A stretch of DNA of 64,000 bases, from the NCBI GenBank assembly GCA_026387175.1, contig JAPLME010000007.1:64487-128486 (forward strand). Reading direction: 5' to 3'. Below the pieces are notes generated by a model that saw only the letters and a list, made by a program, of their open reading frames with translations, was not told the origin of the DNA and did no database searches. Shown piece after piece: positions 31,368-56,677 of this stretch. A program made the translations under genes and the position numbers. This DNA is from Candidatus Omnitrophota bacterium (lineage in GTDB: Bacteria > Omnitrophota > Gorgyraeia > 2-01-FULL-45-10). Numbering within the stretch: position 1 is the first letter of the stretch; the number at the start of each line of letters is the position of its first letter.

Positions 31368-33633
<2,266 letters not shown>

Positions 33634-33637
<4 letters not shown>

Positions 33638-35151
33638 TTAATGGTATTCCTGAATCCGGTTTTGAATGATTCTATGGCTTTATTAAGTTTTTCCTTCAGC
33701 GGATCATCAAGAACCCTCTTCGCTTCGATCTCGCGCTCTATATCCGGATGAGTCGAATCGATATATTTATAGAATTCAATCTCAAATTTTCGGATCACAG
33801 ATATCTTCAAATCGTCCAGAAATCCATTTGTCGCGGCATAAATAATCATTACCTGTTTCCCCAGCCCGAGCGTATCGTATTGCCCCTGTTTCAATATCTC
33901 GACCATTCGCTCTCCGCGATGCAGCTGTGCCTGCGTGGTCTTATCGAGCTCCGACCCAAACTGGGAGAAAGCGATAAGCTCCCTGTACTGCGCCAGGTCC
34001 AGCCTCAACCTTCCGGCTACCTGCTTCATGGCCTTCTCCTGGGCGTTACCGCCTACCCGCGAGACCGATAAGCCCACATTGATCGCAGGGCGTACGCCTG
34101 CATAGAACAGGTCGGTTTCGAGATATATCTGGCCGTCGGTGATAGATATGACGTTCGTCGGTATGTAACTCGTTATGTCTCCCGCTTGCGTCTCTATTAT
34201 CGGAAGCGCGGTGATGGACCCTCCCCCGAGCTTGTCGCTCAGCTTTGCCGCGCGCTCCAGTAGCCTCGAATGCAGATAGAAGATATCTCCCGGGTATGCT
34301 TCCCTGCCCGGAGGCCTTCTCAATAGGAGCGAAAGCTGTCTGTAGGCCTGCGCGTGTTTTGAGAGATCGTCATATATGACCAGTACGTCTTTCCCTAAAT
34401 GCATGAACTCTTCCGCCATGGCGCAGGCTGAATAAGGGGCCAGATACTGCAGTGAGGCCGATGCGCGCGATGAAGCGCTTACGATAATCGTATGCTCCAT
34501 TGCGCCATACTGCTTAAGCGTCTCCGAGACGGATACTATGCTCGACATCTTCTGCCCGATAGCTACATAGATGCAGTAAACGCCTTTACCCTTCTGGTTG
34601 ATTATCGTATCGATCGCGATAGCTGTCTTGCCTGTCTGGCGGTCCGCGATTATGAGTTCACGTTGTCCGCGGCCTATGGGGATCATTGAATCGATAGCTT
34701 TTATGCCTGTATAGAGCGGCTGGGTGACAGGCTGCCGGTCTATGACGCCCGGCGACCTTGCCTCGACGGGCCGGTGTCTATTCGTGGCGATGGGTCCTTT
34801 GCCGTCTCTCGGATGTCCGAGTGCGCTAACGACCCTTCCTAAAAGGGCTTCTCCTACCGGCACCTGAGCGATCTTCCCCGTCCGCTTTACGATCTCGCCT
34901 TCCCGTATCTCTTTTTCATCTCCCAGTATGACTATGCCTACGCTATCCTCCTCCAGATTGAAGACTATCCCTTCGGTGCCGTCTTTAAACGTGACAAGCT
35001 CGCCCACCATGACATCATCTAACCCGTACACGAGGGCTATCCCGTCACCGACCTGCAGGACCGTTCCGACCGATTCGACCCTGAGCCTGGTTCGGTATTT
35101 CTCTAATTCTTTCTTAATTATGGCTGTTACTTCATGCGGCTGCAGATGCAT
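33634..35151 (-). CDS. atpA: F1 ATP synthase alpha subunit
   Basis: Walker [10 protein letters not shown] and the typical alpha C-terminus. Confidence 0.95.
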
Positions 35152-35152
35152 A

Positions 35153-35701
35153 TCATACCACCTTCAGTACGTCGAGCTTTTTTTTCATATCTTCCAGGCG
35201 TTTTTTGACGGACCCGTCTATTATTAAATTTCCTATTTGCGCATACGCGCCGCCGACCAGGTCTGCGTCAAGCTGAATATATAGATGGATCTTCCTGCTT
35301 ATGCGCTGCTCAAGAGCGTTTTTTATCCTATGGAGCGTATTCGTCTCAAGCGGATAGCTTGTCTTAAGGAGCGTGTCGGCTTCAGCGCCGTGAGCGTAAT
35401 GTATGCGCGTATATTCCGCTATGTCGACGAATAGATCGATGCGTTTGGCTTCGATAAGCAGTTTGAGAAAGTGTATCAGCTCATCATTAAATTCATTTTT
35501 AAATACAGCGTTGACGACTTCATCCTTTTCGGAGTTTGTTATCGCGGGACTCTCGAGAAACTCTTTAAGGTTCGGGTTGTCGCGCATAATGCGCTTTGCC
35601 CTATGCAGCTCATCCAGGCCCTGCACGAAACCGATCGTCTCTTTAGCGTATGCTAAAAATGCGTTTGCGTACCTCTTTGACACTATCTCTTCCCTGATCA
35701 C
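35153..35701 (-). CDS. atpH: F1 ATP synthase delta (OSCP) subunit
   Basis: A 182-aa protein in the canonical position between b and alpha. It has OSCP-like N-terminal helices. Confidence 0.75.
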
Positions 35702-36192
35702 TTTTTCTCGATCCCCTTAAGAAAATCTTCGACCAGCCGCCTGTCGCTTTCCTCGGAAAGCTTCTCCTGAATGACCTTCTCGGCCACCCGTATGGTCAGG
35801 TCCACGATGTCATCCTTAAGCTCTTCTCTGGCTTTCGCGACTTCGTCCTTGATATTAGATTTTGCCTTATCAATGATCTTTTCCGAGTCCAGCTCAGCCT
35901 TGGCTTTCAATTCTTCGGCAAGTACGCGGCCCTGGTCCACCGCCTCCCGTATCTTCGCCTTAGCTTCATCGTCTATATCGGCAAGCTTCTTTTCGTACTC
36001 TCCTTTAATCCGCGAAAGAGTCTCTTTGGCCTCTTCGATCCTCTTAAACTCGGACGAGACAGTCTCCCGCCTCTTGTCGATAATGCCGAGGAACTTCTTC
36101 CACAGAAAGCTCCGCATTATTACAAGCAGTATCAGAAAGCATATTATCTGGGCGACCAGCTCATTTGTGTTGAGAAGTTTCAGCAGGCCCAT
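35698..36192 (-). CDS. atpF: Fo ATP synthase b subunit
   Basis: A single N-terminal TM helix followed by a long charged coiled coil (KAKIREAVDQGRVLAEELKAKAE...). Confidence 0.8.
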   Translation of the reverse strand: MGLLKLLNTNELVAQIICFLILLVIMRSFLWKKFLGIIDKRRETVSSEFKRIEEAKETLSRIKGEYEKKLADIDDEAKAKIREAVDQGRVLAEELKAKAELDSEKIIDKAKSNIKDEVAKAREELKDDIVDLTIRVAEKVIQEKLSEESDRRLVEDFLKGIEKK

Positions 36193-36203
36193 TCAGTATT
36201 TCC

Positions 36204-36434
36204 TTAAATTTTCCCTGCCAGGCTAAAAGCGAAGACAAGCGCATAGATCGTTATGGCCTCAATGAACGCGCAGCCGGTAGCCATATTTATCAATATCTTC
36301 ATCGACGCTTCCGGTTGCCTGCCCGTCGCCTCCATCGCTGCCGCTACCGCCCTGCCCAGCGCTATAGCCGAGCCGAAAGCGGCTATCCCCAGACCTATGG
36401 GAAGGCCGAACGATAACATCGTCTTATAATCCAT
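36204..36434 (-). CDS. atpE: Fo ATP synthase c subunit (proteolipid)
   Basis: A 76-aa helical hairpin with the RQP loop motif and a conserved carboxylate in helix 2 (AFIEAITIY). GGAGG RBS 6-10 nt upstream. Confidence 0.9.
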   Translation of the reverse strand: MDYKTMLSFGLPIGLGIAAFGSAIALGRAVAAAMEATGRQPEASMKILINMATGCAFIEAITIYALVFAFSLAGKI

Positions 36435-36447
36435 CTCCTACCTCCTT

Positions 36448-36549
36448 GTTTATTCAGCCGTACTGTATGCCAAGTGCCGATATCCCTGATATCGGCCTAG
36501 TTTATTCAGCCTTATTGTAGGCTAAGTGCCGATATCTCTGATATCGGCC
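36448..36549. repeat. Tandem pair of a ~50-bp double-hairpin repeat unit (GATATC-palindrome element) between atpB and atpE
   Basis: Unit A spans 36448-36497 and unit B spans 36498-36549. Each unit contains a 5-bp-stem hairpin AGCCt-N6-AGGCT and a perfect palindrome GCCGATATC-N3-GATATCGGC. The same family recurs at 56023-56126. Confidence 0.85.
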
Positions 36550-37295
36550 TTTTCTTCGCGGGTTAATGCTAACGCAAAATATATTGTCGTCAAAAGACAG
36601 AATACCGAGGCCTGCACGACCGCGGCAAGGGCGGCAATGAACATATTGAATAATAAGAGCGGTACCCCTTTAAGGCCGAAGCCCGCGAGCACCGCGAGCA
36701 GCATGTCATCGCCCCATATATTGGACCGGAGCCTGAGCGATAGGCTTATGGGCCTTACAAGTTCTGAGATGATATGCAGAAATAGCATCAGTAATGGTAT
36801 GACCACCGATGCCGCCAGTATTCCCCTGGGTTTCCCCATAAGATGGTCGACGAATCCCAATAACCCGAGCTCCTTCAATGTGGTGTACTGCAGATAGACG
36901 AATACGCATAACGCGAGCGCAAGAGTTACGGACCAGTTCGATGTGGGCGCTTTCATGAAAGGCACGAGGCTTATGAGGTTCATGGATAGTATGTATATGA
37001 AGAGAGTCCCTATGAAAGGCGTAAAACGCCTTCCCTTGGGCCCGAGTATGCCGCATATGAATGAGTCAAATCCTCCTACGAACATTTCGAACGCCGACTG
37101 CAGCCTTCCGGGGATCATCCTGAGGCGCCGGGACGCGACTATAGTAATCAGCGAAATGGCGGCTATAACTATCAAAGAGAAGATGACATTCTCGTAATGG
37201 GACAGGTTTCTCAGTACCGGGATATCTTTAAAATGCTCCGAGATAATAGTTACGATATTCGGAAGCTCGTGGCTTGCTACGCTCGCTTCGGCCAT
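36522..37295 (-). CDS. atpB: Fo ATP synthase a subunit
   Basis: Multi-TM protein with the conserved Arg in LSLRLRSNIWGDD (the a-subunit R210 region). The last 8 codons and the stop (ADIRDIGT*) are encoded by repeat unit B. Confidence 0.85.
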   Translation of the reverse strand: MAEASVASHELPNIVTIISEHFKDIPVLRNLSHYENVIFSLIVIAAISLITIVASRRLRMIPGRLQSAFEMFVGGFDSFICGILGPKGRRFTPFIGTLFIYILSMNLISLVPFMKAPTSNWSVTLALALCVFVYLQYTTLKELGLLGFVDHLMGKPRGILAASVVIPLLMLFLHIISELVRPISLSLRLRSNIWGDDMLLAVLAGFGLKGVPLLLFNMFIAALAAVVQASVFCLLTTIYFALALTREEKADIRDIGT

Positions 37296-37624
37296 ATATT
37301 CATAATTCCTATAATTAATAGCGTAAGCCCTATCCCGGTTAAAAGGCTCATTACCGGAAAGAGTTTATATTTTAAGATGAAGAATCCCCCAATATACAAT
37401 ACCGGGAACTTTATTATAAGCGCCCTGGTTATTCTTTTTGGTTCTTTCTGCAGAAGCGCCATCTCAAAGAGGCTCACTGTTAGCGAGTAGTTTATAACGC
37501 ACCATAGTATGCCCGCCATTAAGCCTGCCGCCCAATCGATTTCGTTCCGGAAAAGCAGCATGGCCCCTGCGGCGGCGCCCGTCAGGTATGCGGTCTTCCT
37601 GACGCTTCTTACGATATCATTCAT
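37277..37624 (-). CDS. atpI: ATP synthase protein I (AtpI)-like small membrane protein
   Basis: Hydrophobic ~115-aa protein immediately upstream of atpB. The start is taken at the internal Met (MNDIVRSV...), because the longer ORF overlaps atpZ. Confidence 0.55.
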   Translation of the reverse strand: MNDIVRSVRKTAYLTGAAAGAMLLFRNEIDWAAGLMAGILWCVINYSLTVSLFEMALLQKEPKRITRALIIKFPVLYIGGFFILKYKLFPVMSLLTGIGLTLLIIGIMNIWPKRA

Positions 37625-37854
37625 TACCGCTCCTTGGTCCTGAGGGCGATCTTTATTATTCTGATGGTCTCCTGGACGCTTGCTATGAAACCCAGTATAA
37701 CACAAATAACTGCTGTGTAGCCAGGCAAAGTAAATTTTTTTATCAATAGATCAGCTATAAGATATCCGCCAAGCGGCCCGCCTGCCAGAATTATGGGAAT
37801 GACCGCCAAGAGCCCTGCTGTCCTCACCCATCTATACAGCTCTTCGCTCTTCAT
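37624..37854 (-). CDS. atpZ: AtpZ/ATPase_gene1-family small 2-TM protein
   Basis: A ~76-aa protein (MKSEELYRWVRTAGLLAVIPIILAGGPLGGYLIADLL...) in the atpZ position upstream of atpI. The start is taken at the internal Met of the longer ORF. Confidence 0.5.
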   Translation of the reverse strand: MKSEELYRWVRTAGLLAVIPIILAGGPLGGYLIADLLIKKFTLPGYTAVICVILGFIASVQETIRIIKIALRTKER

Positions 37855-38351
37855 TAGGCAATAGTCTCTGCCAATATGACGGCAACTTTCTCCGCCGCCG
37901 TCTCTACGCTTTTGGATACGGCCTTGCCGAAATCGATCCTTTTTGGCTGAATGCCTATTACGGTAGCCTGACATCCGCATGAATTCACAAGGTAATCTAT
38001 CAGTATCTTCGCGGGCATCTTGTGGGTCGAAAAAGATGCGCCGCCTCCTACGTCTTCGGGTTTGAAGAGATAGATCGATCCGGCTCTCTTTCCGGCATCT
38101 ATAGTATCGATCATTATAAGGTGCGAGGGCTTAAATTTTTTGATCTCACCGGTGAGGTTTTCAGGCGCTGTTTCTCCGAAGAATATTTTTACGGGGACGC
38201 GGGCTTTTCGTTTGGATAATTTATCTTTCAGGCTGCGGGCGGCGAGCATACCGGAAACGTCGTCGGCCCTGAGATCAGAACCTATGCCGAGGACGGCAAT
38301 TTTTTCGGCGTTATGAAATCTATTTTTTAACGTCTTCCTTAATGTCCGCAC
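37854..38351 (-). CDS. [NiFe]-hydrogenase maturation endopeptidase (HycI/HybD family)
   Basis: IAVLGIGSDLRADDVSGM (the GxGN..DDG-type metal site), with downstream Asp (IMIDTIDAG) and His (STHKMP) ligands. Confidence 0.7.
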   Translation of the reverse strand: MRTLRKTLKNRFHNAEKIAVLGIGSDLRADDVSGMLAARSLKDKLSKRKARVPVKIFFGETAPENLTGEIKKFKPSHLIMIDTIDAGKRAGSIYLFKPEDVGGGASFSTHKMPAKILIDYLVNSCGCQATVIGIQPKRIDFGKAVSKSVETAAEKVAVILAETIA

Positions 38352-38697
38352 CGAATATCACTTTCAGTTTTTTCTTATCGAGAACGGCGAGCTCGAACTC
38401 TTTAGTGGATTCCAGCGCTTTTTTCATGCAGGAGTCTACGCACTGAGCGCAATATATGCATTTTGCGAGATTGAACTCCGCTTCAAATTTCTTATCCCCG
38501 ACTTTATTGATGGTTATGGCATTTGACGGGCAATCCCTGACGCACATCTTGCAGCCTATGCATAATTCCGGGTGGAAGATTATCTTTCCCCTGTAGCGAT
38601 CCGGCATTGCGCTCTTCTTGAAAGGGTATTGCGACGTCGCCGGTTTCTTGAAAAGGGACTCAAGCACCTGTTTTACCATCTTTCCGGGCCTGATCAT
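38320..38697 (-). CDS. 2x[4Fe-4S] ferredoxin subunit of the group-4 hydrogenase (NuoI/MbhN/EchF-like)
   Basis: Two CxxCxxCxxxCP motifs (CIGCKMCVRDCP and CIYCAQCVDSC). The start is taken at the Met that gives an ATGA overlap with the upstream gene. Confidence 0.8.
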   Translation of the reverse strand: MIRPGKMVKQVLESLFKKPATSQYPFKKSAMPDRYRGKIIFHPELCIGCKMCVRDCPSNAITINKVGDKKFEAEFNLAKCIYCAQCVDSCMKKALESTKEFELAVLDKKKLKVIFGADIKEDVKK

Positions 38698-39635
38698 TTC
38701 GTGAGCACCCCTTTCATGATGAGGCATATGAGCATCTGGAGGAATGCGAACGGCGATACGTATTTCCAGCAGAATTCCACCATCTGGTCCATTCTGAAGC
38801 GCGCGAAGACTGTGCGCGCGAGCGACATGATCGCTATTATAAATAATAGTTTGGCTATATATACGGGAAACCCGAGTACTGCCGGAAGCCCGAATCCGAA
38901 CGGCAGATAGACGGCCGCGACAAGCGACGCGCCTACGATCGTCTCCACATTGATGGAAAGCCTGAAGAGCGCCAATAGCCTGCCGCTGTATTCGGTGAAG
39001 GTACCTCCGACGATCTCCGTCTCGGCTTCGGGCGTGTCGAACGGCACCTTTTCCAGTTTTCCCAATAACGCGATTATCGATATGACAAACCCTATCAGGT
39101 TAAAGAGCCAGTACCAGTGGTGACTGCTGTAGAAGAGCGCCATTTCGCTGAGTGACCAGGTATTGGCAAGCATGGCCGGCGCCAGTATGCACATTAATAA
39201 CGGTACTTCATACGCGAAAAGCTGCGTGAGCGACCTGATGGCGCCGATCTTAGAATATAATGAGGTTGAATACCATCCGCCCAGAAAGTATGTAAGGGTC
39301 GGTATCGTCAGCAGATATATTGTCACTATCAGGTCCCCGTTAAACGAGTAAAGCGCCTGCGTATGCCAGAGAGGTATATAGAACGAAGCTGTGATAGTGG
39401 CTGTTAACGCGAATATAGGCATCGCTTTAAACATCCTGGGGTTAGCTTCCGCCGGTATTATAGATTCTTTCGAGACGAGCTTTATAAAGTCGGCCCATGG
39501 CTGGAACCATGGCGGCCCGACTCTGTTTTGCAGTCTGGCATATAATTTGCGGTCGATAAATTCCGCGGCCAGCCCGGCTGTGCCGAGAAACAAAAAGCCG
39601 GGAAATATGACAATATTGAACAGGTCTAATAACAT
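38694..39635 (-). CDS. NuoH/MbhM/EchB-like integral membrane subunit
   Basis: A 313-aa polytopic protein with the complex I subunit-1 family pattern (RKLYARLQNRVGPPWFQPWADFIKLVSKE). Confidence 0.8.
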   Translation of the reverse strand: MLLDLFNIVIFPGFLFLGTAGLAAEFIDRKLYARLQNRVGPPWFQPWADFIKLVSKESIIPAEANPRMFKAMPIFALTATITASFYIPLWHTQALYSFNGDLIVTIYLLTIPTLTYFLGGWYSTSLYSKIGAIRSLTQLFAYEVPLLMCILAPAMLANTWSLSEMALFYSSHHWYWLFNLIGFVISIIALLGKLEKVPFDTPEAETEIVGGTFTEYSGRLLALFRLSINVETIVGASLVAAVYLPFGFGLPAVLGFPVYIAKLLFIIAIMSLARTVFARFRMDQMVEFCWKYVSPFAFLQMLICLIMKGVLTK

Positions 39636-40858
39636 CTTATAGCCTCTTGAGCGAATTTCTTGTTAAGTTTCGAGAAGTCGATACCGTTCGAACGGTGCCA
39701 TTCTATGCCGTGTAAACGCAGCTCTTCCCACTTTACGATGTGGGGTGACCTCTTATTAAGATCTTTGACAGTGATAAGCCTGTCAGTGCATGAAAAGCAC
39801 GGGTCTATCGCCGCGATCACTATAGGAAGATCCGCAAGCTGCCTGTCCTCAAGCATCTTCGCTACCGTCTGAATGTTCGCCAGGGTCGGAGCCCTCACTT
39901 TTACTCTTTCGGGCTTATCGGTGCCATTGGCCTTCACATAGTGGACGTCCTCGCCTCTGGGGGCCTCGTAACGGCTGAAGGCTTCTCCGGCGGGTATCTT
40001 GCGCGGAGACTTTATCGCTATAGGGCCGTCCGGTATATTTTTTAAGGCCGTGCGGATCAGGCGATATGACTCCATCAGCTCACCCATCCTAACGAGCGTC
40101 CGGCCGTATACGTCATTATGGTCATCCGTAACGATCTTGAAATCCAGTTCTGCGTAAGCCGCATAAGGGTCGTCGCGTCTCGTGTCTCTGGCTACATTTG
40201 AAGCTCGCGCGGTAGGCCCGACAGCTCCGAGAGATAACGCGTCCTCGCGCGAGAGCATTCCTACTCCCGACAGCCTCTGAATTAAAGTGGTCTCTTCTTT
40301 TGCTACCTGGATGTAATACTTTGTTCTCTCTTCCAGAATATCCATGGCCTTTAAGATGTGTTCTATGTGCTCGGGGCTAAGATCGCGCTTTACGCCCCCT
40401 ATCACATTCATGCCGTAATTGACGCGATTACCGGTCAGTTCCGCAAGGATGTCCATTACCACTTCGCGGTCGCGCCATGTATACATCAGGAGAGTATCAA
40501 ATCCTACCTCATGGCCGGCGACGCCGAGCCACAAGAGATGGCTGTGTATTCTCTCCAATTCGCCTATTATCGAGCGGATGTAAAGGGCCCTGCGCGGAGT
40601 CTCCAGTCCGGCTATCTCTTCGACGGCCTGGGCGAAGCATGTAGCGTGTGTGTGCGAGCATATACCGCATATACGTTCGATAAGATAGATATCCTGTAGG
40701 TACGTTCTGGCTTCACACGCTTTCTCTATGCCGCGATGATTATATCCGAGCCGGGCGCTGAACGCCATTATCCTCTCGCCCGCCAAAGTGACGCTGAAGC
40801 TCTCGGGCTCTTTCAGCGCCGGATGCTGGGGGCCTATCGGTATTACGACTTTACGCAT
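39626..40858 (-). CDS. Group 4 [NiFe] hydrogenase large (catalytic) subunit (NuoD-like)
   Basis: N-terminal Ni-Fe ligand motif RICGICSHTH and C-terminal DPCFSCTDR, so all four Cys are present. A ~50-aa extension after the C-terminal motif is consistent with protease processing. Confidence 0.85.
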   Translation of the reverse strand: MRKVVIPIGPQHPALKEPESFSVTLAGERIMAFSARLGYNHRGIEKACEARTYLQDIYLIERICGICSHTHATCFAQAVEEIAGLETPRRALYIRSIIGELERIHSHLLWLGVAGHEVGFDTLLMYTWRDREVVMDILAELTGNRVNYGMNVIGGVKRDLSPEHIEHILKAMDILEERTKYYIQVAKEETTLIQRLSGVGMLSREDALSLGAVGPTARASNVARDTRRDDPYAAYAELDFKIVTDDHNDVYGRTLVRMGELMESYRLIRTALKNIPDGPIAIKSPRKIPAGEAFSRYEAPRGEDVHYVKANGTDKPERVKVRAPTLANIQTVAKMLEDRQLADLPIVIAAIDPCFSCTDRLITVKDLNKRSPHIVKWEELRLHGIEWHRSNGIDFSKLNKKFAQEAIRCY

Positions 40859-41349
40859 TATATTTTTTCCTCCTCATCTGGTAACGCACCGGATGCGGCG
40901 GTGCCTTTTGGCTTCCAGTCTTTCCTCAGCGGGTGCTCATCTTTAGGCCAATCATCCGGAAGCGGATAGCGATTGCCTTTTGTGAGCCCTTCTACCTCGG
41001 CTCCTAAAAGGTCCATGACCTCTCTTTCGTAAATATCGGAATTCGGAAAATATTTAAAGACGGACTTGATCACGGGTTTATCTTTCGGCACAGAGAATTT
41101 CAGGCTGAAAGTTATCCCGTCAGTGCGGGCCATATGATATATGAAGCCAAGCGCCTGGCCTTCATCGAGGCCGGTTATCGTGCACAGGATAGAGAATTTG
41201 AGATCCTCTTTGGCATACACAAAGACTTCCTCGAAACCCTCCGCAGGGGTCTCGGCGACGACCCTCCTCACCCGCTGCACCTTAGCCTTATCCTTGAGAA
41301 ACGGAAATTTCTTTAGGAGCTCCTGAACTATATTTTCTTCTTTAGTCAT
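40858..41349 (-). CDS. NuoC-like (30-kDa) subunit of the group-4 hydrogenase
   Basis: A 163-aa protein in the position between the small and large subunits, with the NuoC/MbhK-like pattern. Confidence 0.7.
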   Translation of the reverse strand: MTKEENIVQELLKKFPFLKDKAKVQRVRRVVAETPAEGFEEVFVYAKEDLKFSILCTITGLDEGQALGFIYHMARTDGITFSLKFSVPKDKPVIKSVFKYFPNSDIYEREVMDLLGAEVEGLTKGNRYPLPDDWPKDEHPLRKDWKPKGTAASGALPDEEEKI

Positions 41350-41354
41350 AAATT

Positions 41355-41792
41355 TTACTTTTTCTCTTCCAGGCTGGCCAATAACTTTACAACGCCGTCT
41401 ATTATCGCCTTAGGGCTGGCCGGGCATCCGGGTATGTATGCGGATACCGGAATGACCTGGTCTATTCCCGATTCTACGCAATAGCATCCGTCGAAGACTC
41501 CGCCTGAGCAGGAACAGCTTCCCACTGCCACTACAAATTTCGGCTCAGCCATCTGGTCATATATCCTTTTAAGTCTGTCTTTTGTCTGTTTCGTTACGGG
41601 GCCGGAGCAGACCAGCACATCGGCGTGTTTCGGAGCGCCTTTCAACTGCACCCCGAAACGTTCTACATCGTAACGCGGCGTAAGGGCGGCGACTATCTCG
41701 ATATCACAGGCGTTACAGGCCCCCGTATTAAAATGGATTATCCACGGCGACTTAATCCTCGACCAGGTTACTATTTTCTTGATCAGCTCCAT
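41355..41792 (-). CDS. Group 4 [NiFe] hydrogenase small subunit (NuoB-like, proximal 4Fe-4S)
   Basis: Cys ligands in GACNAC, GSCSCSGG and GCP. Confidence 0.8.
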   Translation of the reverse strand: MELIKKIVTWSRIKSPWIIHFNTGACNACDIEIVAALTPRYDVERFGVQLKGAPKHADVLVCSGPVTKQTKDRLKRIYDQMAEPKFVVAVGSCSCSGGVFDGCYCVESGIDQVIPVSAYIPGCPASPKAIIDGVVKLLASLEEKK

Positions 41793-41793
41793 A

Positions 41794-42129
41794 TTATCTC
41801 CTGAGCAGTATCGTAAGTCCCGCCGTCGCCCCCGCCAGATATATTACCGCGATGGCAAAGGAGTTCGTCGTCTCGATAGGTATAGTCGCTATGGTCAACG
41901 CCACCACGTGCAGTACCGTGAAAAGAAACGCAAACGGAAAAAATTGGCTATAATCGGGCTGCATCAAATGGGTCTTAACGTCTTCTCCGCAGGCATACGA
42001 TGTCCCTATATCTTCCGGAGGGTTTTTCGATTTTAGCGAAAGCCTGGATAGGACTCCGGAGAAGATAGTGGTCATTAAAAGCACCGTAACGAAACATATC
42101 GGAGGAGTCAATAATAGCTTATTCATCAT
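41794..42129 (-). CDS. NuoA-like small membrane subunit
   Basis: A 111-aa 3-TM protein with a YACGED motif resembling the NuoA PYECG loop. Confidence 0.55.
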   Translation of the reverse strand: MMNKLLLTPPICFVTVLLMTTIFSGVLSRLSLKSKNPPEDIGTSYACGEDVKTHLMQPDYSQFFPFAFLFTVLHVVALTIATIPIETTNSFAIAVIYLAGATAGLTILLRR

Positions 42130-42450
42130 TTATCCCTTCAGCCTCTTTAATTCCCTTACGTCGAGCGAGTCATTGGATCTGAATACCCGCAGAGCTATGC
42201 CGCTGGCTATCGCGGCGACCACAACCTCTATCACTATTATAGTTATCACCATGGCCTGAGTTACAGCCGTGCGCCCTGTTATGTAGCCGGCCACTATCAC
42301 CAGCAGTGTCACCGCTTTTATCAATAGCTCGAGCCCTATTATGGTCCGTATCAGGTTGCGCGTCACGAGTATGCAATAGAGCCCGCAGACGAAAGTCAGT
42401 ACGATGAAAAAGCCGAACATTAAGAAAACATGCCAGGACTCACCACTCAT
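42130..42450 (-). CDS. NuoK/MrpC-like small membrane subunit
   Basis: A ~107-aa 3-TM protein with conserved charged residues within the helices (IIGLELLIKAV...VIEVVVAAIASGIAL). Confidence 0.65.
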   Translation of the reverse strand: MSGESWHVFLMFGFFIVLTFVCGLYCILVTRNLIRTIIGLELLIKAVTLLVIVAGYITGRTAVTQAMVITIIVIEVVVAAIASGIALRVFRSNDSLDVRELKRLKG

Positions 42451-42955
42451 CTCTTCTTCTCTCCTCAAATAGTATTACCACCCCGAGCGCGCCTATGATG
42501 ACCACGATTATCTGCCCGATCATATCCAACTGTCGCATATTCCACATTACGTATCTCACGTCTTTCAGCGCGCCTTCCGTCACGGGCGGCACGGTGATAT
42601 TGCTCTTTATCTTTATCAGAGTGAGAACTATACTCGTTATGATCATCAATATGGGAAGGTATCCGAACCTCTTATTCCTCTCCTTGGAAGATTCCACTAT
42701 CTCCTTATTCGTTAGCGGTTTCGTCAGGCTTATTGTGCTGACGAATACGACCGTTATCAGGCCCGTGCAGACGGAGAGCTCAAACACAGCGGCCAGCGGC
42801 GAATTCAGCCTGAACATGAGTATAGTTATAACAGCACTCGTAACTGCAAGCCCTATAGCGGCCTTCAATAAGCTTCTGCCCATCACCGTCCATAGTGCGG
42901 CCACGATCATTATCACAAGAAGGCCTGAGTCTATAGATATATAAGAAGTCATCAT
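42440..42955 (-). CDS. MrpB-like membrane subunit
   Basis: 171-aa polytopic membrane protein in an Mrp-like gene context. Confidence 0.5.
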   Translation of the reverse strand: MMTSYISIDSGLLVIMIVAALWTVMGRSLLKAAIGLAVTSAVITILMFRLNSPLAAVFELSVCTGLITVVFVSTISLTKPLTNKEIVESSKERNKRFGYLPILMIITSIVLTLIKIKSNITVPPVTEGALKDVRYVMWNMRQLDMIGQIIVVIIGALGVVILFEERRRDEW

Positions 42956-44382
42956 TTCGTTATCAACTCCTGTAGGGGTGCGATGAAGGTATTAAAGACA
43001 AACGGAAAAAAGATGCCTGAGGCGACTAGTATCGCCGCGAGTATAATCGACGCCGTTGCTATGCCGGGCCTGGCCTCTTTCAGATGCTCGTTTTCCTTCG
43101 CCAATTTACCGAAAAAGGCCCTCCTCTGCATAACCAATAGGTATGCCAGTGTAATAACGCCCGCCATTATCGCTATCACTGAATAGGCATGGCTGCCGGA
43201 CTGCCAGAGAGCTATGATTATCATCAGCTTTGACCAGAATCCGGATAGAGGCGGTATGCCTGCCGCCGATAATAGCCCTATGACCGAAGTCGCGCCGGTT
43301 ATAGGCATCTTTGAAGATAACCCTCCCATCTTATCCATGTCTGTCGTTCCGAGCCTTGTCTCAACGGCAGCGGAATTCACGAAAAGAAGAGATTTGAATA
43401 TCGAGTGATTAAACAGGTGAAATATCGCTCCCGCTATTCCCAGGAACGTCCCCGTGCCGAAACCTACCACTATATAACCCACCTGGCTTATGCTGGAATA
43501 AGCCAGCATTCTCTTCATATCGTTTTGCCCCATAGCGGCAAAAGCTCCGACAAGTATGGATAAAGTGCCTATTAGTAGTAGCGTAGATTTCAGGGCAGGG
43601 CTAAAGCCTAATATGGCCGTCAGGACCCTTATCAATGTGTATATGCCTGCCACCTTGGTCACGATACCCCCAAGAAGCACCGAGACTGCCGCGGGCGCGG
43701 AACTGTAAGAATCCGGAACCCACGCATGGAACGGCACGAGCCCTCCTTTTATCAGAAGGCCGCATATCAGCAATCCGATCGTAACGAGCACGATATTATT
43801 GTTCGGCAGGAGCAGAGCTTCCCGGATCGCCGCAAACGATGTGCTGCCGGAGATCATAAAAAGAAGAGCTATCGAAGTAAGTATCATTATCGTAGCGACT
43901 GCGGAGAGGATCAGGTATTTGAAAGCGCCTTCAAGAGCATATATATCTTTTTCGAACGCTATAAGCACGAAGGTAGATATCGCGGTCACCTCAAGAAATA
44001 CATATAACGAGAAAATATCCCTGACTATCACTATCCCGCTCATTCCGATAGACGCTATTATGAGCAGATTTATGAATTTAAAACGCTCTTTCTCGTCATG
44101 TATGGTGTTGCGCGCGACCAGGAGCGTGGATATCGAAACTATTCCTATACATAAGAGCATTATGAAACTTAATTGATCCAAAGAGTAATCCGCTTTGAAG
44201 AATGAGTCGATATGGCTAAACTCATTGCGCCAGAATATGGGATGGTGGCTTATCGCAAGAAGTATCTGCGAGACGAACAGGATAAGCGCGAACCAGAACG
44301 CAAATTTCCTCATTATGTCTTTAAGAGGAAGATTGAGAATCACTATCCCTATAAGCGGCATCAGAATAAGTAGTGACGGCAT
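42952..44382 (-). CDS. Antiporter-like subunit (MrpD/NuoN family)
   Basis: 476-aa 14-TM-type protein with NuoL/M/N family conserved segments (GGLVPFHAWVPDSYSSAP, FLEVTAISTF). Confidence 0.75.
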   Translation of the reverse strand: MPSLLILMPLIGIVILNLPLKDIMRKFAFWFALILFVSQILLAISHHPIFWRNEFSHIDSFFKADYSLDQLSFIMLLCIGIVSISTLLVARNTIHDEKERFKFINLLIIASIGMSGIVIVRDIFSLYVFLEVTAISTFVLIAFEKDIYALEGAFKYLILSAVATIMILTSIALLFMISGSTSFAAIREALLLPNNNIVLVTIGLLICGLLIKGGLVPFHAWVPDSYSSAPAAVSVLLGGIVTKVAGIYTLIRVLTAILGFSPALKSTLLLIGTLSILVGAFAAMGQNDMKRMLAYSSISQVGYIVVGFGTGTFLGIAGAIFHLFNHSIFKSLLFVNSAAVETRLGTTDMDKMGGLSSKMPITGATSVIGLLSAAGIPPLSGFWSKLMIIIALWQSGSHAYSVIAIMAGVITLAYLLVMQRRAFFGKLAKENEHLKEARPGIATASIILAAILVASGIFFPFVFNTFIAPLQELITK

Positions 44383-44398
44383 TATTATTTCTCGCTCT

Positions 44399-46222
44399 TT
44401 ACTTTAATAAAAATAAGACTATGATCGCGGTGGTCGCGATCGACCATATTATATACGTCTTGTAGCTTCCGTCGTGCAGATTTCGTATCGCGCCCGTTAT
44501 CGCCCCGGTCGCCGCAGGAGTGAAGACGTTATAGACCCAGTCCACCGCCCTGTCGCAGGTCCTGCAGCAGGCGGCGAAGATACCGGCCGATCCCATCCCT
44601 ATATTATAGGGATCGAGCCTGCCTTTTTCGGCGTACTCATAAATAGTCCGAAGCCCCGGAGCGTAATGGATATGGTCCGCGGCTTTCAGGGAGCTTCCCG
44701 TGCGCTTTACGCCGTATAGATGATTCAATAAAGCGGCTATCAGGGTTATCACCGTAATCATCACCAGTGTGGAGTTTGCCGGCCACCCCGCAAAATTGTG
44801 GCCCTCAAGCCTTGCGCCCAATATGGGCTGAATCAATTTATTAATAGGCAGAGCATTCCATACGCCGAATAGAACGCATGAAGCCGCTATCACTACCATG
44901 GGGATGAGCATTGGAAGAGGCGCTTCTTTTACGTCATTCCTGTTCGATTTGCCCATGAATGCTGCATGCCCGAGCTTCAAAAAAGACGCCGCGGTAAGGA
45001 ACGATCCAAGCGCTGCGGCAACGTAGAATATCATCCCTCTTTCAAGGGCGCCGTCATAGATCAGTTCTTTAGAGAAGAACCCGTTGAACGGCGGCACTCC
45101 GGATATCGAAGCCGCTGTTATCAGGAAGCAGATGAACGTCACCGGCATCATCTTCCCCAACCCGCCCAGCTGTTCTAGATCGGTTGTACCGGCCTGCCTC
45201 TCGACTGAACCTCCGGTAAGAAACAGACAGCTCTTATACAACGCGTTATTTATCATGTGAAATAGCCCGCCCACTATACCTATGGGCACAAGAGTGCCTA
45301 TGCCGAGTATCATATAACCGACCTGGCTTACGGCGTGGTAAGCTAATAATCTCTTATAATCTTTCTGCACCAGCGCCATCATTACAGCTCCCAATATGGT
45401 GATCGCGCCCACGGTCATCATCGCAAAGCTGGCCCACGAATCAGGCGTAAGCCTGAAGATGTCCAGGGATATCCTTGTCAAAAAGTATATGCCCAATAAT
45501 TTCTCGAGCGCTCCGGGGAATATCGCCATGAATGGCAGCGGCGCATCGATCGCGGCATCCGGTATCCATGTATGAAACGGCATCGATCCTGCCTTAGCTA
45601 TCGCTCCCGTCACCATCAGTATGAATGCCAGCCCCCCGAACCCGCTTGCAGCAATGCTTATCTTCGAGATAGTGAGCGTGCCCGCGATGTGGCCGCATAT
45701 CGCTATCCCAGCCATCATGCAAAGGTCGCTTATTCCTATGATAATAAACATTTTAGTCGCAGTCCTGAAAGCGTCTTTATTGCCGATGGCTATCATTCCC
45801 CACAGAGTGATGAGAAGCCCCTCCCAGAAGAATAGCAGCATGATGAGATTATCTGAGAGCGCCGCTCCGTTAACGAGAGCCAATGACATCAATAGAAGTC
45901 CGAAAAAGAGGCTCGAATTGATCCTTTCGCGCATGAAGACAATGGAATACAGGATTACAAGAAATCCAAATCCCGCCGATGCCAGTATGGTAAATGCGCT
46001 GAAGTGGTAGAGCCTAAACGAGAATTCAAAGCCGAAACCCGCCCAGGGCATCGAAAATGCAGCATTGCTTTTAAAGAGTGAGAACGCTATAAAAAGATTG
46101 GCTGCGGCCCCCGCAAGCGTTAACAGGTCCCTGGTCAATCTCATTTTACGCTGGAAAAGGATTATCGCCAGCCCGGCCAGCGCCGGCATTATTATTAAGG
46201 ATAGGGATAGTTTTTCTATCAT
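44399..46222 (-). CDS. Antiporter-like subunit (MrpA/NuoL family, long form)
   Basis: 607 aa, with the conserved GSMPFHTWIPDA segment and a C-terminal extension typical of NuoL/MrpA. Confidence 0.75.
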   Translation of the reverse strand: MIEKLSLSLIIMPALAGLAIILFQRKMRLTRDLLTLAGAAANLFIAFSLFKSNAAFSMPWAGFGFEFSFRLYHFSAFTILASAGFGFLVILYSIVFMRERINSSLFFGLLLMSLALVNGAALSDNLIMLLFFWEGLLITLWGMIAIGNKDAFRTATKMFIIIGISDLCMMAGIAICGHIAGTLTISKISIAASGFGGLAFILMVTGAIAKAGSMPFHTWIPDAAIDAPLPFMAIFPGALEKLLGIYFLTRISLDIFRLTPDSWASFAMMTVGAITILGAVMMALVQKDYKRLLAYHAVSQVGYMILGIGTLVPIGIVGGLFHMINNALYKSCLFLTGGSVERQAGTTDLEQLGGLGKMMPVTFICFLITAASISGVPPFNGFFSKELIYDGALERGMIFYVAAALGSFLTAASFLKLGHAAFMGKSNRNDVKEAPLPMLIPMVVIAASCVLFGVWNALPINKLIQPILGARLEGHNFAGWPANSTLVMITVITLIAALLNHLYGVKRTGSSLKAADHIHYAPGLRTIYEYAEKGRLDPYNIGMGSAGIFAACCRTCDRAVDWVYNVFTPAATGAITGAIRNLHDGSYKTYIIWSIATTAIIVLFLLK

Positions 46223-56013: not shown

Positions 56014-56022
56014 AATTCCTCC

Positions 56023-56126
56023 AAGTTTATTCATCCATATTACAGGCTGAGTGCCGATATCCTTGATATCGGCCAAGTTTATTAAGCCGTATTGTAGACT
56101 AAGTGCCGATGTCTCTGACATCGGCC
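56023..56126. repeat. Second tandem pair of the GATATC-palindrome double-hairpin repeat, directly upstream of glnN
   Basis: Unit C spans 56023-56074 and unit D spans 56075-56126. They have the same architecture and ~80-90% identity to 36448-36549 (AGTTTATT.AGCC.TA.TGTAG.CTAAGTGCCGAT.TC...GA.ATCGGCC). Confidence 0.85.
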
Positions 56127-56299
56127 TTTAAAGTGTAAATAAAAAACGTTCGTTTCTCCCCTTTATCTCTTAAAGAAAATATCGGGTCGCCTCGAACGTC
56201 GATGTTCTTATCATTTTATTTTATCTGCTGTTATTGGCACTTCTCTGTGCCCGAAAATCGTACCACACTCTCCGTGATTGTGCAAGCACATTAATAGCG

Positions 56300-56677
56300 T
56301 TATGCTATTTTCCATTTGCCTGCATTGATGCCCAGCCTTTTTATCTTCACCCGCATCGTATTTCGGTTTATGCCCAATATTCGCGCGGCCTTCAGTTGGT
56401 TGCCGTCGGTTCTCTTCAGGGCGCGTTCGATAAGCGGTCTCTCGATCTTTTCCAGTATCGCTTTATAGATCGCGCCGCGCTTTTCTTCATACAGCAGGCC
56501 CTCCATTTCGATGATTTTTTCTTCCAGGGAATCGATTGAAACTGCGTCATCATCTTTATGAGCGTGAATTACGCCGTTACCAACGCTTCCTGATATCAGA
56601 TACCCTTTTTCTTTCAGCAATTGCGCTAAAAGTCCGCTTACTTTCTTTTCACAACTTGACGCCGTGATAGTTATCAT
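56300..56677 (-). CDS. Small Fis-family HTH DNA-binding protein (NtrC C-terminal-like) with a ~55-aa N-terminal domain
   Basis: C-terminal HTH_8 pattern GNQLKAARILGINRNTMRVKIKRLGI. Confidence 0.6.
   Translation of the reverse strand: MITITASSCEKKVSGLLAQLLKEKGYLISGSVGNGVIHAHKDDDAVSIDSLEEKIIEMEGLLYEEKRGAIYKAILEKIERPLIERALKRTDGNQLKAARILGINRNTMRVKIKRLGINAGKWKIA

What the first reader, a model, noticed from the sequence alone, without database searches (positions are those of the whole stretch)
36448..36549. Novel double-hairpin 'GATATC-palindrome' repeat cassette between atpB and atpE
Two tandem ~50-bp units make up the region. Each unit is AGTTTATTCAGCC-t-TA-TGTAGGCT-AAGTGCCGATATC-N3-GATATCGGCC. 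It contains a small hairpin (AGCCT-N6-AGGCT) and a perfect 21-bp palindrome (GCCGATATC-N3-GATATCGGC).

On the coding (minus) strand each unit ends ...GGCTGAATAAAC. At the gene-proximal unit this is followed by AAGGAGG and then the atpE ATG, so the element supplies or abuts the Shine-Dalgarno context of the c-subunit gene. The distal unit encodes the last 8 codons plus the stop of atpB (ADIRDIGT*). That suggests the element inserted into the 3' end of the a-subunit gene and recoded its C-terminus.

The loop of the first hairpin reads TACAAT/TACAGT on the coding strand, which is -10-like. Possible roles are a portable promoter/5'-UTR element, an operator for a dimeric regulator (the perfect palindrome), an RNA processing or stability element, or a MITE-like intergenic repeat.
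Basis: seen in the sequence. Interest (0 to 1): 0.7.

Follow-up and report, generated by a model that had tools for sequence, protein, structure and literature searches.

The report
Repeated hairpin leader cassette in Omnitrophota
The two 52-base units between the ATP synthase a and c subunit genes belong to a large, apparently undescribed repeat family of the uncultured phylum Omnitrophota: a hairpin-containing module, alone or in short tandem arrays, that sits exactly two bases upstream of the ribosome-binding site of many unrelated genes and is probably a plug-in mRNA leader.

Summary
The window, from a Candidatus Omnitrophota MAG, holds four 52-nt units. Two lie between atpB and atpE and two lie upstream of a type III glutamine synthetase gene. 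One metagenome scan hit its 120-locus limit and gave about 110 non-redundant arrays of 1 to 4 or more units, all on Omnitrophota-like contigs.

Each unit has a 9-bp hairpin in which every pair covaries, a weaker second hairpin, and an A-rich tail, AAUAAAC. About 80-85% of arrays end 2 nt before a Shine-Dalgarno sequence and start codon. The downstream genes span about 100 Pfam families. Arrays begin either 10-22 nt after a canonical sigma-70 promoter or at the stop codon of the upstream gene, and that gene often reads into the unit, as atpB does.

Relatives with 65-80% AtpB identity have no unit at this site, while close relatives have 2 or 3. Orthologous units diverge far less than 4-fold degenerate sites.

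The best reading is a transcribed, modular leader or intercistronic cassette (stops, hairpins, A-rich platform, SD) that spreads by insertion and duplication. Its biochemical action is inferred, not shown. Promoter and operator readings are not supported. There is no Rfam or literature match.

The parts
36500..36549 (-). atp array, distal unit. Hairpin 1: 36548-36540 pairs with 36536-36528, loop AGA. Hairpin 2: 36523-36519 pairs with 36512-36508. Tail: AAUAAAC. Its first 28 nt encode the atpB C-terminus ADIRDIGT and the stop codon (36524-36522).
   Evidence: CM hit of 76.4 bits; 52/52 identical to the orthologous unit in L259 and 50/52 to that in L257
36448..36497 (-). atp array, proximal unit. 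Hairpin 1: 36496-36488 pairs with 36484-36476, loop AGG. Hairpin 2 is degenerate. Tail: AAUAAAC.
   Evidence: CM hit of 54.6 bits
36432..36447 (-). AAGGAGG-TAGGAG-ATG: the Shine-Dalgarno sequence, spacer and start codon of atpE, immediately after the array.
   Evidence: GGAGGTAGGAGATGGA is identical in the window, L257 and L259
36522..37295 (-). atpB (F0 subunit a), whose 3' end reads into the distal unit.
56077..56126 (-). glnN array, distal unit. Hairpin 1: 56125-56105, GCCGAUGUC-AGA-GACAUCGGC, compensated relative to the GAUAUC type.
   Evidence: CM hit of 73.4 bits
56025..56074 (-). glnN array, proximal unit. Hairpin 1: 56073-56053, loop AAG.
   Evidence: CM hit of 45 bits
56011..56024 (-). 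UU-GGAGG-AAUU-AUG: the SD (56022-56018) and start codon (56013-56011) of the type III glutamine synthetase gene.
   Evidence: Pfam GSIII_N

Best explanation
The units are copies of a multi-copy, 52-nt, cis-acting module specific to Omnitrophota. It is transcribed as part of mRNAs, either as the 5' leader just after a promoter or as the whole spacer between two genes of an operon.

Each module brings four things:
- stop codons in two or three reading frames, which close the upstream reading frame;
- a stable 9-bp hairpin and a second small hairpin;
- an unstructured A-rich stretch (AAUAAAC);
- 2 nt further on, a strong Shine-Dalgarno sequence.

The proposed action is that of a standardised expression cassette. 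The hairpins insulate and stabilise the downstream message as 5'-proximal structure. For the upstream cistron they give 3'-terminal structure and a barrier next to the stop codon. The A-rich platform plus SD then gives efficient translation initiation that does not depend on upstream context. This uncouples a gene such as atpE from its upstream neighbour. Array length (1 to 4 or more units) may tune the effect.

The family spreads by insertion next to SD sequences and by tandem duplication.

**Shown:** family membership, position and orientation relative to genes, hairpin covariation, conservation above the neutral rate, gain and copy-number change at the atp site.

**Inferred:** stabilisation, processing and translation enhancement, and the means of spreading.
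For: **1. Scale and host.**
- One exact-pattern scan of metagenomes hit its 120-locus limit. It yielded 131 arrays, about 110 of them non-redundant real ones.
- One 830-kb contig has at least 12 arrays.
- Neighbouring proteins fall in clusters named Candidatus Omnitrophota.

**2. Registration with translation starts.**
- 87 of 110 arrays are followed by an SD and a start codon 3-11 nt after it. In 71 of those 87 the SD begins exactly 2 nt after AATAAAC.
- Several more were missed by the filter.

**3. Generic use.**
- 82 downstream proteins hit about 100 Pfam families, including L21, GAPDH, DnaK, MreB, FtsH and GSIII.
- EF-Tu, AtpE and pilins were read from the N-terminal translations.

**4. 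The units are transcribed.**
- About 25 arrays have a strong TTGACA-17-TATAAT promoter whose -10 ends about 10-22 nt before the first unit.
- Of 63 arrays with a co-directional upstream ORF of at least 120 codons, 31 ORFs stop within 15 nt before the unit or at its start. Another 17 stop inside the unit, 7 of them at the conserved UAG.

**5. Structure.**
- All 9 pairs of hairpin 1 show changes on both sides. 0 of 500 shuffles reach the observed covariation, and slid controls collapse.
- Loop length and sequence vary.
- The window leaders fold with z-scores of -7.0 and -4.3.

**6. Constraint, from loci fetched through the protein and so not biased by the search pattern.**
- 4-fold degenerate sites of atpB and atpE differ by 0.31-0.37 between the window, L259 and L257.
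- The distal unit differs at 0/52 and 2/52 positions, and those 2 are a compensatory U-A to G-C change in hairpin 2. The proximal unit differs at 7/52.

**7. Dynamics.**
- Four relatives have an empty atpB-atpE site.
- Close relatives have 2 or 3 units.

**8. Accessibility.**
- Translation-initiation regions behind units are modestly more open than those of control genes: median unpaired probability 0.55 against 0.48, P=6e-5.
Against: - No transcript, half-life or translation data exist for these uncultured organisms, so the biochemical action is inference by analogy.
- The commonest hairpin variant (GCCUCGGUC..GACCUCGGC, 72 of 151 distinct units) has a conserved 2x2 UC/UC internal loop and no significant predicted stability on its own (z = -0.35). 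This suggests recognition by a factor rather than simple thermodynamic blocking.
- In promoter-driven arrays the hairpin probably starts about 5-15 nt from the 5' end, which is not ideal for a classical 5'-terminal stabiliser.
- The SD itself is not significantly more accessible (P=0.16).
- G.U and A.C mismatches in the stem are about equally frequent, so the stem gives no strand-specific RNA signature.
- A minority of arrays do not fit. They abut tRNA genes (L152), abut the -35 box of a promoter (L132, L173, L242, L248, L229, L198), or lie antisense next to RNase P RNA (L132).
- Conservation could partly reflect gene conversion among copies rather than selection on each copy.
Confidence: 0.5

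Rival explanations
1. A selfish or near-neutral interspersed repeat. A non-autonomous element is mobilised as a single-stranded DNA hairpin, for example by a Y1/HUH transposase as with REP/RAYT or IS200/IS605, and is tolerated in intergenic spacers. Any effect on expression is incidental.
For: - Lineage-specific insertion into a previously overlapping atpB/atpE junction, and 2 versus 3 copies among close relatives.
- All nine Logan contigs carrying this atpB end inside the repeat, as expected for multi-copy DNA.
- The commonest variant is an imperfect hairpin with a conserved internal mismatch.
- There is no strand asymmetry between G.U and A.C mismatches.
- Y1_Tnp genes (PF01797) occur in Omnitrophota loci L255 and L147.
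- Upstream ORFs read into the units, as with Rickettsia palindromic elements (PMC2229807).
Against: - Strict co-orientation with the downstream gene and 2-nt registration with the SD in 80% or more of arrays.
- Orthologous units are conserved far above 4-fold degenerate sites, with compensatory changes.
- No inverted pairs, no GTAG-type tetranucleotide and no terminal inverted repeats.
- The Y1_Tnp genes are not next to units.
- A different repeat in the same genomes is the one that looks REP-like, a GTAG-palindrome.
Confidence: 0.2
2. A binding platform for one trans-acting post-transcriptional factor, such as a CsrA-, S1- or cold-shock-like protein, a dedicated endoribonuclease, or a small RNA. 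The arrays would mark a large regulon controlled or processed together.
For: - The single-stranded segments (CACUUAG, GGCUKAAUAAAC) stay highly conserved even in units found only as neighbours of pattern hits.
- The conserved UC/UC internal loop is not explained by thermodynamics.
- The hairpin-1 loop is GGA in 76 of 151 distinct units, and the glnN-proximal unit reads AUCAAGGAUAU, which resembles a CsrA site (the CsrA consensus is from my own knowledge).
- Precedent: TAACTGA tandem repeats just upstream of start codons of many unrelated genes in Beggiatoaceae were proposed to be regulator binding sites (PMC4679880).
Against: - GGA loops are not universal. AGA, UAAA, UGA and GCCA loops occur, and the window has AGA, AGG and AAG.
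- No CsrA or Hfq homologue was found by tblastn in the roughly 0.9 Mb held, which is weak evidence because these are fragments of many genomes.
- The downstream genes have no common function.
Confidence: 0.2
3. A DNA-level transcription element: a portable promoter, an UP element, or an operator for a dimeric regulator.
For: - TACAAT and TACAGT occur in the hairpin-2 loop of the window's units.
- Hairpin 1 is a perfect palindrome here.
- About 8 arrays end exactly where a -35 hexamer begins (AATAAAC|TTGACA-N17-TATACT in L132, L173, L242, L248, L229, L198), so the A/T-rich tail sits where an UP element would.
- GGCAC weakly resembles a sigma-54 -24 box.
Against: - Across the family the loop is ACACCG, ACACUG or ACAAUA, not -10-like.
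- There is no -35/-10 pair at proper spacing inside a unit. The sigma-54 -12 GC is absent (read directly from the alignment).
- Separate canonical promoters lie upstream of about 25 arrays.
- The SD follows the unit after 2 nt, leaving no room for a start site and leader.
- The arms covary freely and the loop is 3 or 4 nt, which is incompatible with a sequence-specific dimer operator.
Confidence: 0.06
4. Antisense-direction intrinsic terminators that block antisense or convergent transcription into the upstream gene.
For: - On the opposite strand each hairpin is followed by C-NN-GUUUAUU or, for the first unit, CUUUU. The consensus scan calls these terminator-like, finding 3 sites in the two window regions where about 0.2-0.3 are expected per region.
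- The 5' flank of first units is A-rich throughout the family.
Against: - For internal units the U-run starts 3-4 nt after the stem.
- The element's placement tracks the downstream sense gene and its SD, which an antisense terminator has no reason to do.
- The 31-nt tail is conserved well beyond what a terminator needs.
Confidence: 0.04

Closest known systems
REP/BIME extragenic palindromes (Enterobacteria, Pseudomonas) and their RAYT transposases
   Same: Short, high-copy palindromic hairpins in intergenic DNA. They are co-transcribed with genes and are known to stabilise adjacent mRNA. When close to a stop codon they affect translation of the upstream gene (own knowledge). Copy number varies between relatives.
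   Different: REPs have a GTAG-type 5' tetranucleotide, occur mainly downstream of genes, often form inverted pairs, and have no fixed relation to the next gene's SD. The present units are 52-nt direct tandem modules with a conserved 31-nt non-palindromic tail. They are co-oriented with the downstream gene and end 2 nt before its SD. No RAYT association was found.
TAACTGA tandem heptamer repeats upstream of start codons in Beggiatoaceae, Cyanobacteria and Bacteroidetes (MacGregor 2015, PMC4679880)
   Same: Tandem direct repeats lying within a few nucleotides upstream of the start codons of many functionally unrelated genes, including ribosomal protein genes. They contain stop codons, have a lineage-restricted distribution, and were proposed to act post-transcriptionally.
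   Different: [quoted passage not shown] The present units are 52 nt, contain two hairpins with covariation, and deliver a canonical strong SD.
Correia/NEMIS elements, ERIC/IRU, RUP/BOX and Rickettsia palindromic elements (reviewed in PMC2229807)
   Same: Small non-autonomous repeats that are co-transcribed, form RNA hairpins, alter the expression or stability of neighbouring genes, and can fuse to reading frames (RPE), as the unit does with atpB.
   Different: Those elements have terminal inverted repeats and target-site duplications (MITE-like) and insert in either orientation at variable distances from genes. None is SD-registered or arranged as direct tandem modules.
5'-UTR stabiliser hairpins and A/U-rich translational enhancers (ompA leader, B. 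subtilis aprE leader, T7 gene 10 leader), chloroplast intercistronic elements (PPR10 site upstream of atpH) and synthetic insulators (RiboJ, Csy4 sites)
   Same: Functional analogy only (own knowledge): a structure or barrier upstream of an exposed ribosome-binding site that stabilises the message, defines processed ends in polycistronic RNA and makes translation independent of context. In chloroplasts such an element also serves the c-subunit gene.
   Different: Those are single-locus elements or engineered parts. Here one sequence family is reused at tens of loci per genome and in tandem. No processing or stabilisation has been measured.

Membership tests
Any Rfam family | A covariance-model match at or near the family's gathering score | tested here: not met
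   No hit at gathering score in the whole window. With E up to 10 on 36300-36700 the only match is a chance plant miRNA, 14 bits against 48 needed.
REP/BIME (RAYT-mobilised) | An imperfect palindrome of about 20-40 nt present in many copies | tested here: met
   A 21-22 nt hairpin in hundreds of copies, many with a conserved internal mismatch.
REP/BIME (RAYT-mobilised) | A conserved GTAG-like tetranucleotide at the 5' foot of the palindrome | tested here: not met
   The flanks are (A-rich)GG on the 5' side and ACUUAG on the 3' side. On the opposite strand the foot reads CUAAGU.
REP/BIME (RAYT-mobilised) | Copies arranged as inverted pairs (REPIN/BIME), and a RAYT gene flanked by copies | tested here: not met
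   All arrays are direct repeats at a 52-53 nt period. Y1_Tnp homologues in L255 and L147 are not adjacent to units. Whole genomes could not be examined.
MITE | Terminal inverted repeats and a target-site duplication | tested here: not met
   The unit ends GGCCGA... and ...AATAAAC are not complementary. The one empty/filled comparison (L250 against the window, L257 and L259) gives no unambiguous duplication.
Sigma-70 promoter | -35 and -10 hexamers 16-18 nt apart inside the element, with a transcript start downstream | tested here: not met
   The scan finds no promoter inside the units. The loop that reads TACAAT here is ACACCG or ACACUG in most copies. Separate promoters lie upstream. Start sites cannot be tested with these tools.
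Operator for a dimeric DNA-binding regulator | Conserved half-site sequence at fixed spacing | tested here: not met
   The half-site sequence varies freely while complementarity is kept. The spacer is 3 or 4 nt.
Intrinsic terminator (sense strand) | A GC-rich hairpin immediately followed by a U-run | tested here: not met
   On the sense strand the hairpin is followed by ACUUAGCC. Only the antisense strand matches the consensus.
Riboswitch or regulon-specific cis-regulatory RNA | Association with functionally related genes | tested here: not met
   The 82 downstream proteins hit about 100 different Pfam families.
CRISPR array | Repeats separated by unique spacers | tested here: not met
   Units are contiguous, and the 31 nt between hairpins is itself conserved.
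CsrA/RsmA binding site | A GGA motif presented in a hairpin loop, paired with a second GGA at the SD | tested here: inconclusive
   The loop is GGA in 76 of 151 distinct units, but AGA (30), UAAA (20) and others also occur. No CsrA gene was found in the sequence held.

The most novel reading that the evidence does not exclude
Omnitrophota carry a self-propagating translation-start cassette. It is a non-autonomous module that inserts at Shine-Dalgarno sequences, as seen at atpE where it split an SD lying inside atpB. It delivers stops in all frames, hairpins, an enhancer and a fresh SD. A dedicated, still unknown factor, either an endoribonuclease or an RNA-binding protein, reads its conserved tail and the UC/UC loop. 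Together these would form a phylum-specific system for cutting polycistronic transcripts into independently translated units.
Probability: 0.2. Interest if true: 0.9.

Novelty: new variant of a known kind. Interest (0 to 1): 0.74.

Why it matters
Omnitrophota are widespread, uncultured, ultra-small bacteria whose gene regulation is essentially unknown. This family points to a genome-wide, modular way of building mRNA leaders and intercistronic spacers. One 52-nt part is reused in front of tens of genes per genome, in 1 to 4 or more copies, and is registered to the ribosome-binding site.

If it stabilises messages or boosts and uncouples translation, it is a natural counterpart of the synthetic 'insulator' parts used in engineering, and a ready-made portable element to test.

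There are practical consequences too. The repeat breaks short-read assemblies: all Logan contigs with this atpB end in it. It extends annotated reading frames, giving the ADIRDIGT tail of AtpB and a false 766-aa call for the GSIII gene. A covariance model for it would improve annotation of Omnitrophota MAGs.

Tried and rejected
- **Wasted genome scan.** The genome-contig scan used the bare palindrome GCCGATRTCNNNGAYATCGGC, which was too loose. 119 of 120 loci were chance matches inside coding regions of unrelated bacteria, and only L037 (an Omnitrophota MAG, upstream of nusB) was real.
- **Viral contigs.** No match.
- **Promoter readings (sigma-70, sigma-54).** Examined by eye and by scan, then rejected.
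- **Biased constraint test.** I compared unit divergence with 4-fold degenerate sites using pairs drawn from the pattern-selected loci. I rejected this as invalid because 18 of the 31 tail positions were fixed by the search pattern. The unbiased atp-locus comparison replaced it.
- **Alternative fold of the UC/UC variant.** The right arm can pair with GCCGA of hairpin 2, but the energy is not above shuffles and the pairing is not conserved.
- **RAYT association.** Y1_Tnp homologues exist but are not next to units.
- **CsrA and Hfq.** Not found in the sequence held.
- **Diverged copies.** A CM search of 360 kb of loci and 78 kb of four other Omnitrophota genomes found none.
- **Literature.** Searches by organism, motif words and the sequence itself found no description.

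Full report
**1. What is in the window**

Read on the minus strand, the atpB-atpE junction is...GAA GAA AAG | GGCCGAUAUC-AGA-GAUAUCGGC ACUUAGCCUACAAUAAGGCUGAAUAAAC | UA | GGCCGAUAUC-AGG-GAUAUCGGC ACUUGGCAUACAGUACGGCUGAAUAAAC | AAGGAGG UAGGAG AUG. The two 52-nt copies are 88% identical. The atpB frame continues through the first hairpin and stops at the UAG of CACUUAGCC, giving the tail ADIRDIGT.

The palindrome pattern occurs four times in the window against 0.05 expected. The other two copies form a second tandem pair at 56126->56025. It ends UU-GGAGG-AAUU-AUG, in front of a type III glutamine synthetase gene. One of these copies has GAUGUC..GACAUC in place of GAUAUC..GAUAUC, a compensatory change. 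A covariance model built later finds exactly these four units in the 64 kb.

**2. The host**

The AtpB protein is 100% identical to an NCBI MAG protein labelled Candidatus Omnitrophica, and every named relative is Omnitrophota.

**3. The family**

My first collection scan, of genomes with the palindrome alone, was too loose. It returned chance hits except for L037, an Omnitrophota MAG with a full unit upstream of the nusB SD.

A metagenome scan used a pattern taken from the right foot of hairpin 1 plus the non-palindromic tail (CGGCACT-N2-G-N10-GG-N-T-N-AATAAAC). It stopped at its 120-locus limit. About a dozen of the loci were chance matches. The rest gave 131 arrays: 91 single, 36 double, 2 triple and 2 quadruple, some cut by contig ends. 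About 110 were non-redundant real arrays.

Nine of ten neighbouring proteins were found in the protein collection, and every named cluster member is from Candidatus Omnitrophota or Omnitrophica. One 830-kb contig has at least 12 arrays, and contigs of 461 and 328 kb have at least 4 and 5. A genome therefore carries tens of arrays. All nine Logan contigs that carry this atpB end inside the repeat, as multi-copy sequence does in short-read assembly.

**4. Anatomy**

Hairpin 1 is a 9-bp stem with a 3- or 4-nt loop: GGA in 76 distinct units, AGA in 30, UAAA in 20, and others. Its sequence varies while complementarity is kept:
- GCCGAUAUC / GAUAUCGGC
- GAUGUC / GACAUC
- GAGGUC / GACCUC
- GAGAUC / GAUCUC
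- GUCGAUAUC / GAUAUCGAC
- GCCUAUGUC / GACAUAGGC
- GCAUAGGUC / GACCUAUGC
- CCCUCCGCC / GGCGUCGGG

On a 90-sequence alignment all nine pairs show changes on both sides. 0 of 500 shuffles reach the observed covariation, and sliding the partner by 1-3 columns drops pairing from 85% to 24-47%.

The commonest variant, GCCUCGGUC..GACCUCGGC, has a conserved 2x2 UC/UC internal loop flanked by covarying pairs. It has no significant predicted stability on its own. I cannot explain this feature.

Hairpin 2 (UAGCC-N6-GGCUK) is supported mainly by wobble-compatible changes and by covariation of its innermost pair. Most of its 3' side was fixed by my search pattern, so this is weak evidence. It gains support from one unbiased compensatory U-A to G-C change between orthologous units.

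The unit ends in AAUAAAC. A variable dinucleotide follows (UU in 99 of 116 array ends), then either the next unit (GGCC...) or an SD (GGAGG...).

The consensus unit has a UAG in one reading frame and UAA in another. Copies with CUGAAUAAAC also have a UGA in the third frame (read directly from the sequences).

**5. Position relative to genes**

*Downstream.* Of 110 arrays, 87 are followed by an SD and then a start codon 3-11 nt later. In 71 of those 87 the SD starts 2 nt after the unit. Several of the remaining 23 are the same arrangement missed by my filter or cut by contig ends.

*Downstream genes.* They are heterogeneous. By their N-terminal translations or Pfam matches they include EF-Tu, GAPDH, DnaK, ribosomal proteins L21, L35, L7/L12 and L31, SSB, MreB, FtsH, GyrB, ParB, pilins, biosynthetic enzymes, many small secreted or membrane proteins, and a product of more than 2,200 aa. 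They hit about 100 Pfam families across 82 proteins.

*Upstream.* There are two situations.
- About 25 arrays have a strong sigma-70 promoter (for example TTGACA-17-TATAAT) whose -10 box ends about 10-22 nt before the first unit. Here the array makes up nearly the whole 5' UTR.
- In 63 of 106 arrays a co-directional ORF of at least 120 codons ends nearby. In 31 it ends within 15 nt before the unit or at its start. In 17 it ends inside the unit, 7 of them at the conserved UAG at +28, as in atpB. Reading into the unit is therefore a family trait, not a peculiarity of atpB.

*Exceptions.*
- A tRNA-Gly gene starts 2 nt after a unit in L152.
- About 8 arrays end exactly at the TTG of a -35 hexamer.
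- Units lie antisense next to RNase P RNA in L132.

**6. Evolution at the atp site**

Loci were fetched through AtpB homologues, so they were not selected by the repeat. Four relatives at 65-80% AtpB identity have no unit. atpB and atpE overlap by 11 nt in L250, or are 14, 21 and 1 nt apart in L252, L253 and L255. In L250 the atpE SD lies inside atpB: CAUGAAAAGGAGGAACUGCAUGGAUUAUAAG.

Relatives at 88-90% identity have 2 units (L259) or 3 units (L257) at the same place. They share the ADIRDIGT tail and an identical GGAGGUAGGAGAUGGA after the array. L259 still keeps AAGGAGG on the left of the array, so the insertion took place at or within the old SD. No clean target duplication can be read from this one case.

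Between these three genomes the 4-fold degenerate sites of atpB and atpE differ by 0.31-0.37. The distal unit differs at 0/52 and 2/52 positions, the two being a compensatory pair, and the proximal unit at 7/52. L257 also shows a G.U intermediate (GAUGUC..GAUAUC) next to a compensated copy (GAUGUC..GACAUC). The units are thus gained, duplicated and then held under constraint, or homogenised by conversion.

**7. Interpretation**

*Why an RNA element.* The arrays are on the sense strand, behind promoters or inside operons, and registered to the SD. This places them in mRNAs. Free covariation and variable loop length point to a hairpin in single-stranded nucleic acid rather than a protein operator on duplex DNA. 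The heterogeneous gene set rules out a ligand- or pathway-specific regulator.

*Proposed role.* The combination of stops, hairpins, an A-rich single-stranded stretch and a strong SD is what one would design to end upstream translation, shield the message and present an open ribosome-binding site. Initiation regions behind units are modestly more accessible than those of control genes in the same contigs: 0.55 against 0.48, P=6e-5. The SD alone is not significantly different.

I therefore favour a modular leader or intercistronic expression cassette. Placing it between atpB (one copy per enzyme) and atpE (many copies per enzyme) fits a device that uncouples and raises downstream translation. 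That last step is inference from established knowledge of ATP synthase stoichiometry and of 5' hairpin and A/U-rich enhancer effects in model bacteria. It is not a result obtained here.

*Rivals.*
- A largely selfish hairpin repeat.
- A platform for one global RNA-binding factor or nuclease. The conserved tail and the UC/UC loop argue that something reads the sequence.
- A promoter, UP element or operator.
- An antisense terminator. The consensus scan calls the opposite strand terminator-like.

**8. Comparison with known elements**

There is no Rfam match. No description was found in the held literature by organism, keywords or the sequence itself.

The nearest conceptual precedent is the TAACTGA tandem heptamers just upstream of start codons of many unrelated genes in Beggiatoaceae (PMC4679880). 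REP/BIME, Correia, ERIC and RPE elements share multi-copy hairpins, co-transcription and fusion to reading frames (PMC2229807). The defining features of REP (GTAG foot, inverted pairs, RAYT linkage) and of MITEs (terminal inverted repeats) were tested and not met.

I class it as a new variant of the known kind 'small interspersed hairpin repeats co-transcribed with genes'. Its distinguishing features are direct tandem 52-nt modules, strict sense orientation and 2-nt registration to the SD.

**9. Limits**

- The family sample was ascertained with an exact pattern covering 18 positions. Conservation of those positions, and the fraction of copies with an SD, may be inflated.
- No expression data were available.

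Noticed in passing
L137:21, L139:4695 and 6407, L161:4508, L164:11751, L182:696, L184:6049, L220:1420, L248:1240: A second repeat family occurs in the same Omnitrophota contigs: the perfect palindrome GTAGCGCACCC-TTAA-GGGTGCGCTAC (GTAG foot, REP-like). A few bases to one side it has TTATCCACA, the E. coli DnaA-box consensus. In L137, L184 and L220 it lies about 25 nt upstream of a unit that precedes a pilin gene.
   Followed up: partly
L150:242-290, L180:638-686, L194:137-176, L245:1014-1062: A third recurrent structure is a roughly 50-nt long hairpin, AACCGCGUAGGUU...AACCUACGCGGUU. It is found directly upstream of units (L150, L180), between units and an SD (L194), or directly before an SD on its own (L245). 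This suggests that these genomes use several interchangeable hairpin leader modules.
   Followed up: no
L255:6822-7307 (-) and L147:4875-5171 (+): IS200/RAYT-type Y1 transposase genes (PF01797) occur in Omnitrophota contigs. They are candidates for mobilising hairpin repeats but are not adjacent to any unit.
   Followed up: partly
window 56236-56251: The palindrome GGCAC-TTCTCT-GTGCC lies about 110 nt upstream of the glnN array and overlaps the -35 of the only sigma-70-like promoter predicted there (GTGCCA-16-TAAAAT, 56240-56213, minus strand). The next gene upstream (56300-56677, minus) encodes a 125-aa protein with a Fis-type HTH-like C-terminus. This is a possible regulator site for glnN.
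   Followed up: no
L121-L129 (3' ends); L258: Every Logan contig carrying this atpB or its 90%-identical relative stops inside the first unit. The repeat systematically breaks k-mer assemblies of these genomes.
   Followed up: yes
window 53821-56121 (-): The longest ORF for the GSIII gene (766 aa) starts inside the distal unit. The real start, behind the SD, is at 56013 (730 aa). The units can cause over-extended gene calls.
   Followed up: yes
L132:426-974 (-); L141:~150-226 (-); L229:10050-10704: RNase P RNA has units on both sides in L132, and those at its 5' side are antisense to it. In L141 a unit is followed by a tRNA-like 5' half that ARAGORN does not call, possibly an interrupted tRNA. 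L229 has a group I intron about 370 nt downstream of a tRNA gene.
   Followed up: no
window 36425-36556 (-): The two atp units have identical palindromic arms, so the minimum-energy fold pairs arms across units in a nested fashion instead of forming two local hairpins. About half of adjacent units in the family have different arms: 23 of 45 pairs.
   Followed up: partly
window ~33600-45000 (-); L121, L250, L252: The synteny is conserved: an Mbh/Ech-type membrane-bound [NiFe] hydrogenase cluster ending in the HycI protease is followed directly by the F-type ATP synthase operon. This hints at a co-transcribed energy-conservation module.
   Followed up: no
unit tail, e.g. window 36500-36510: The tail CUGAAUAAAC loosely resembles two joined TAACTGA heptamers (..CUGAUAAC..) of the Beggiatoaceae and cyanobacterial repeats, which also sit just upstream of start codons. 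This is a resemblance only and was not tested.
   Followed up: no
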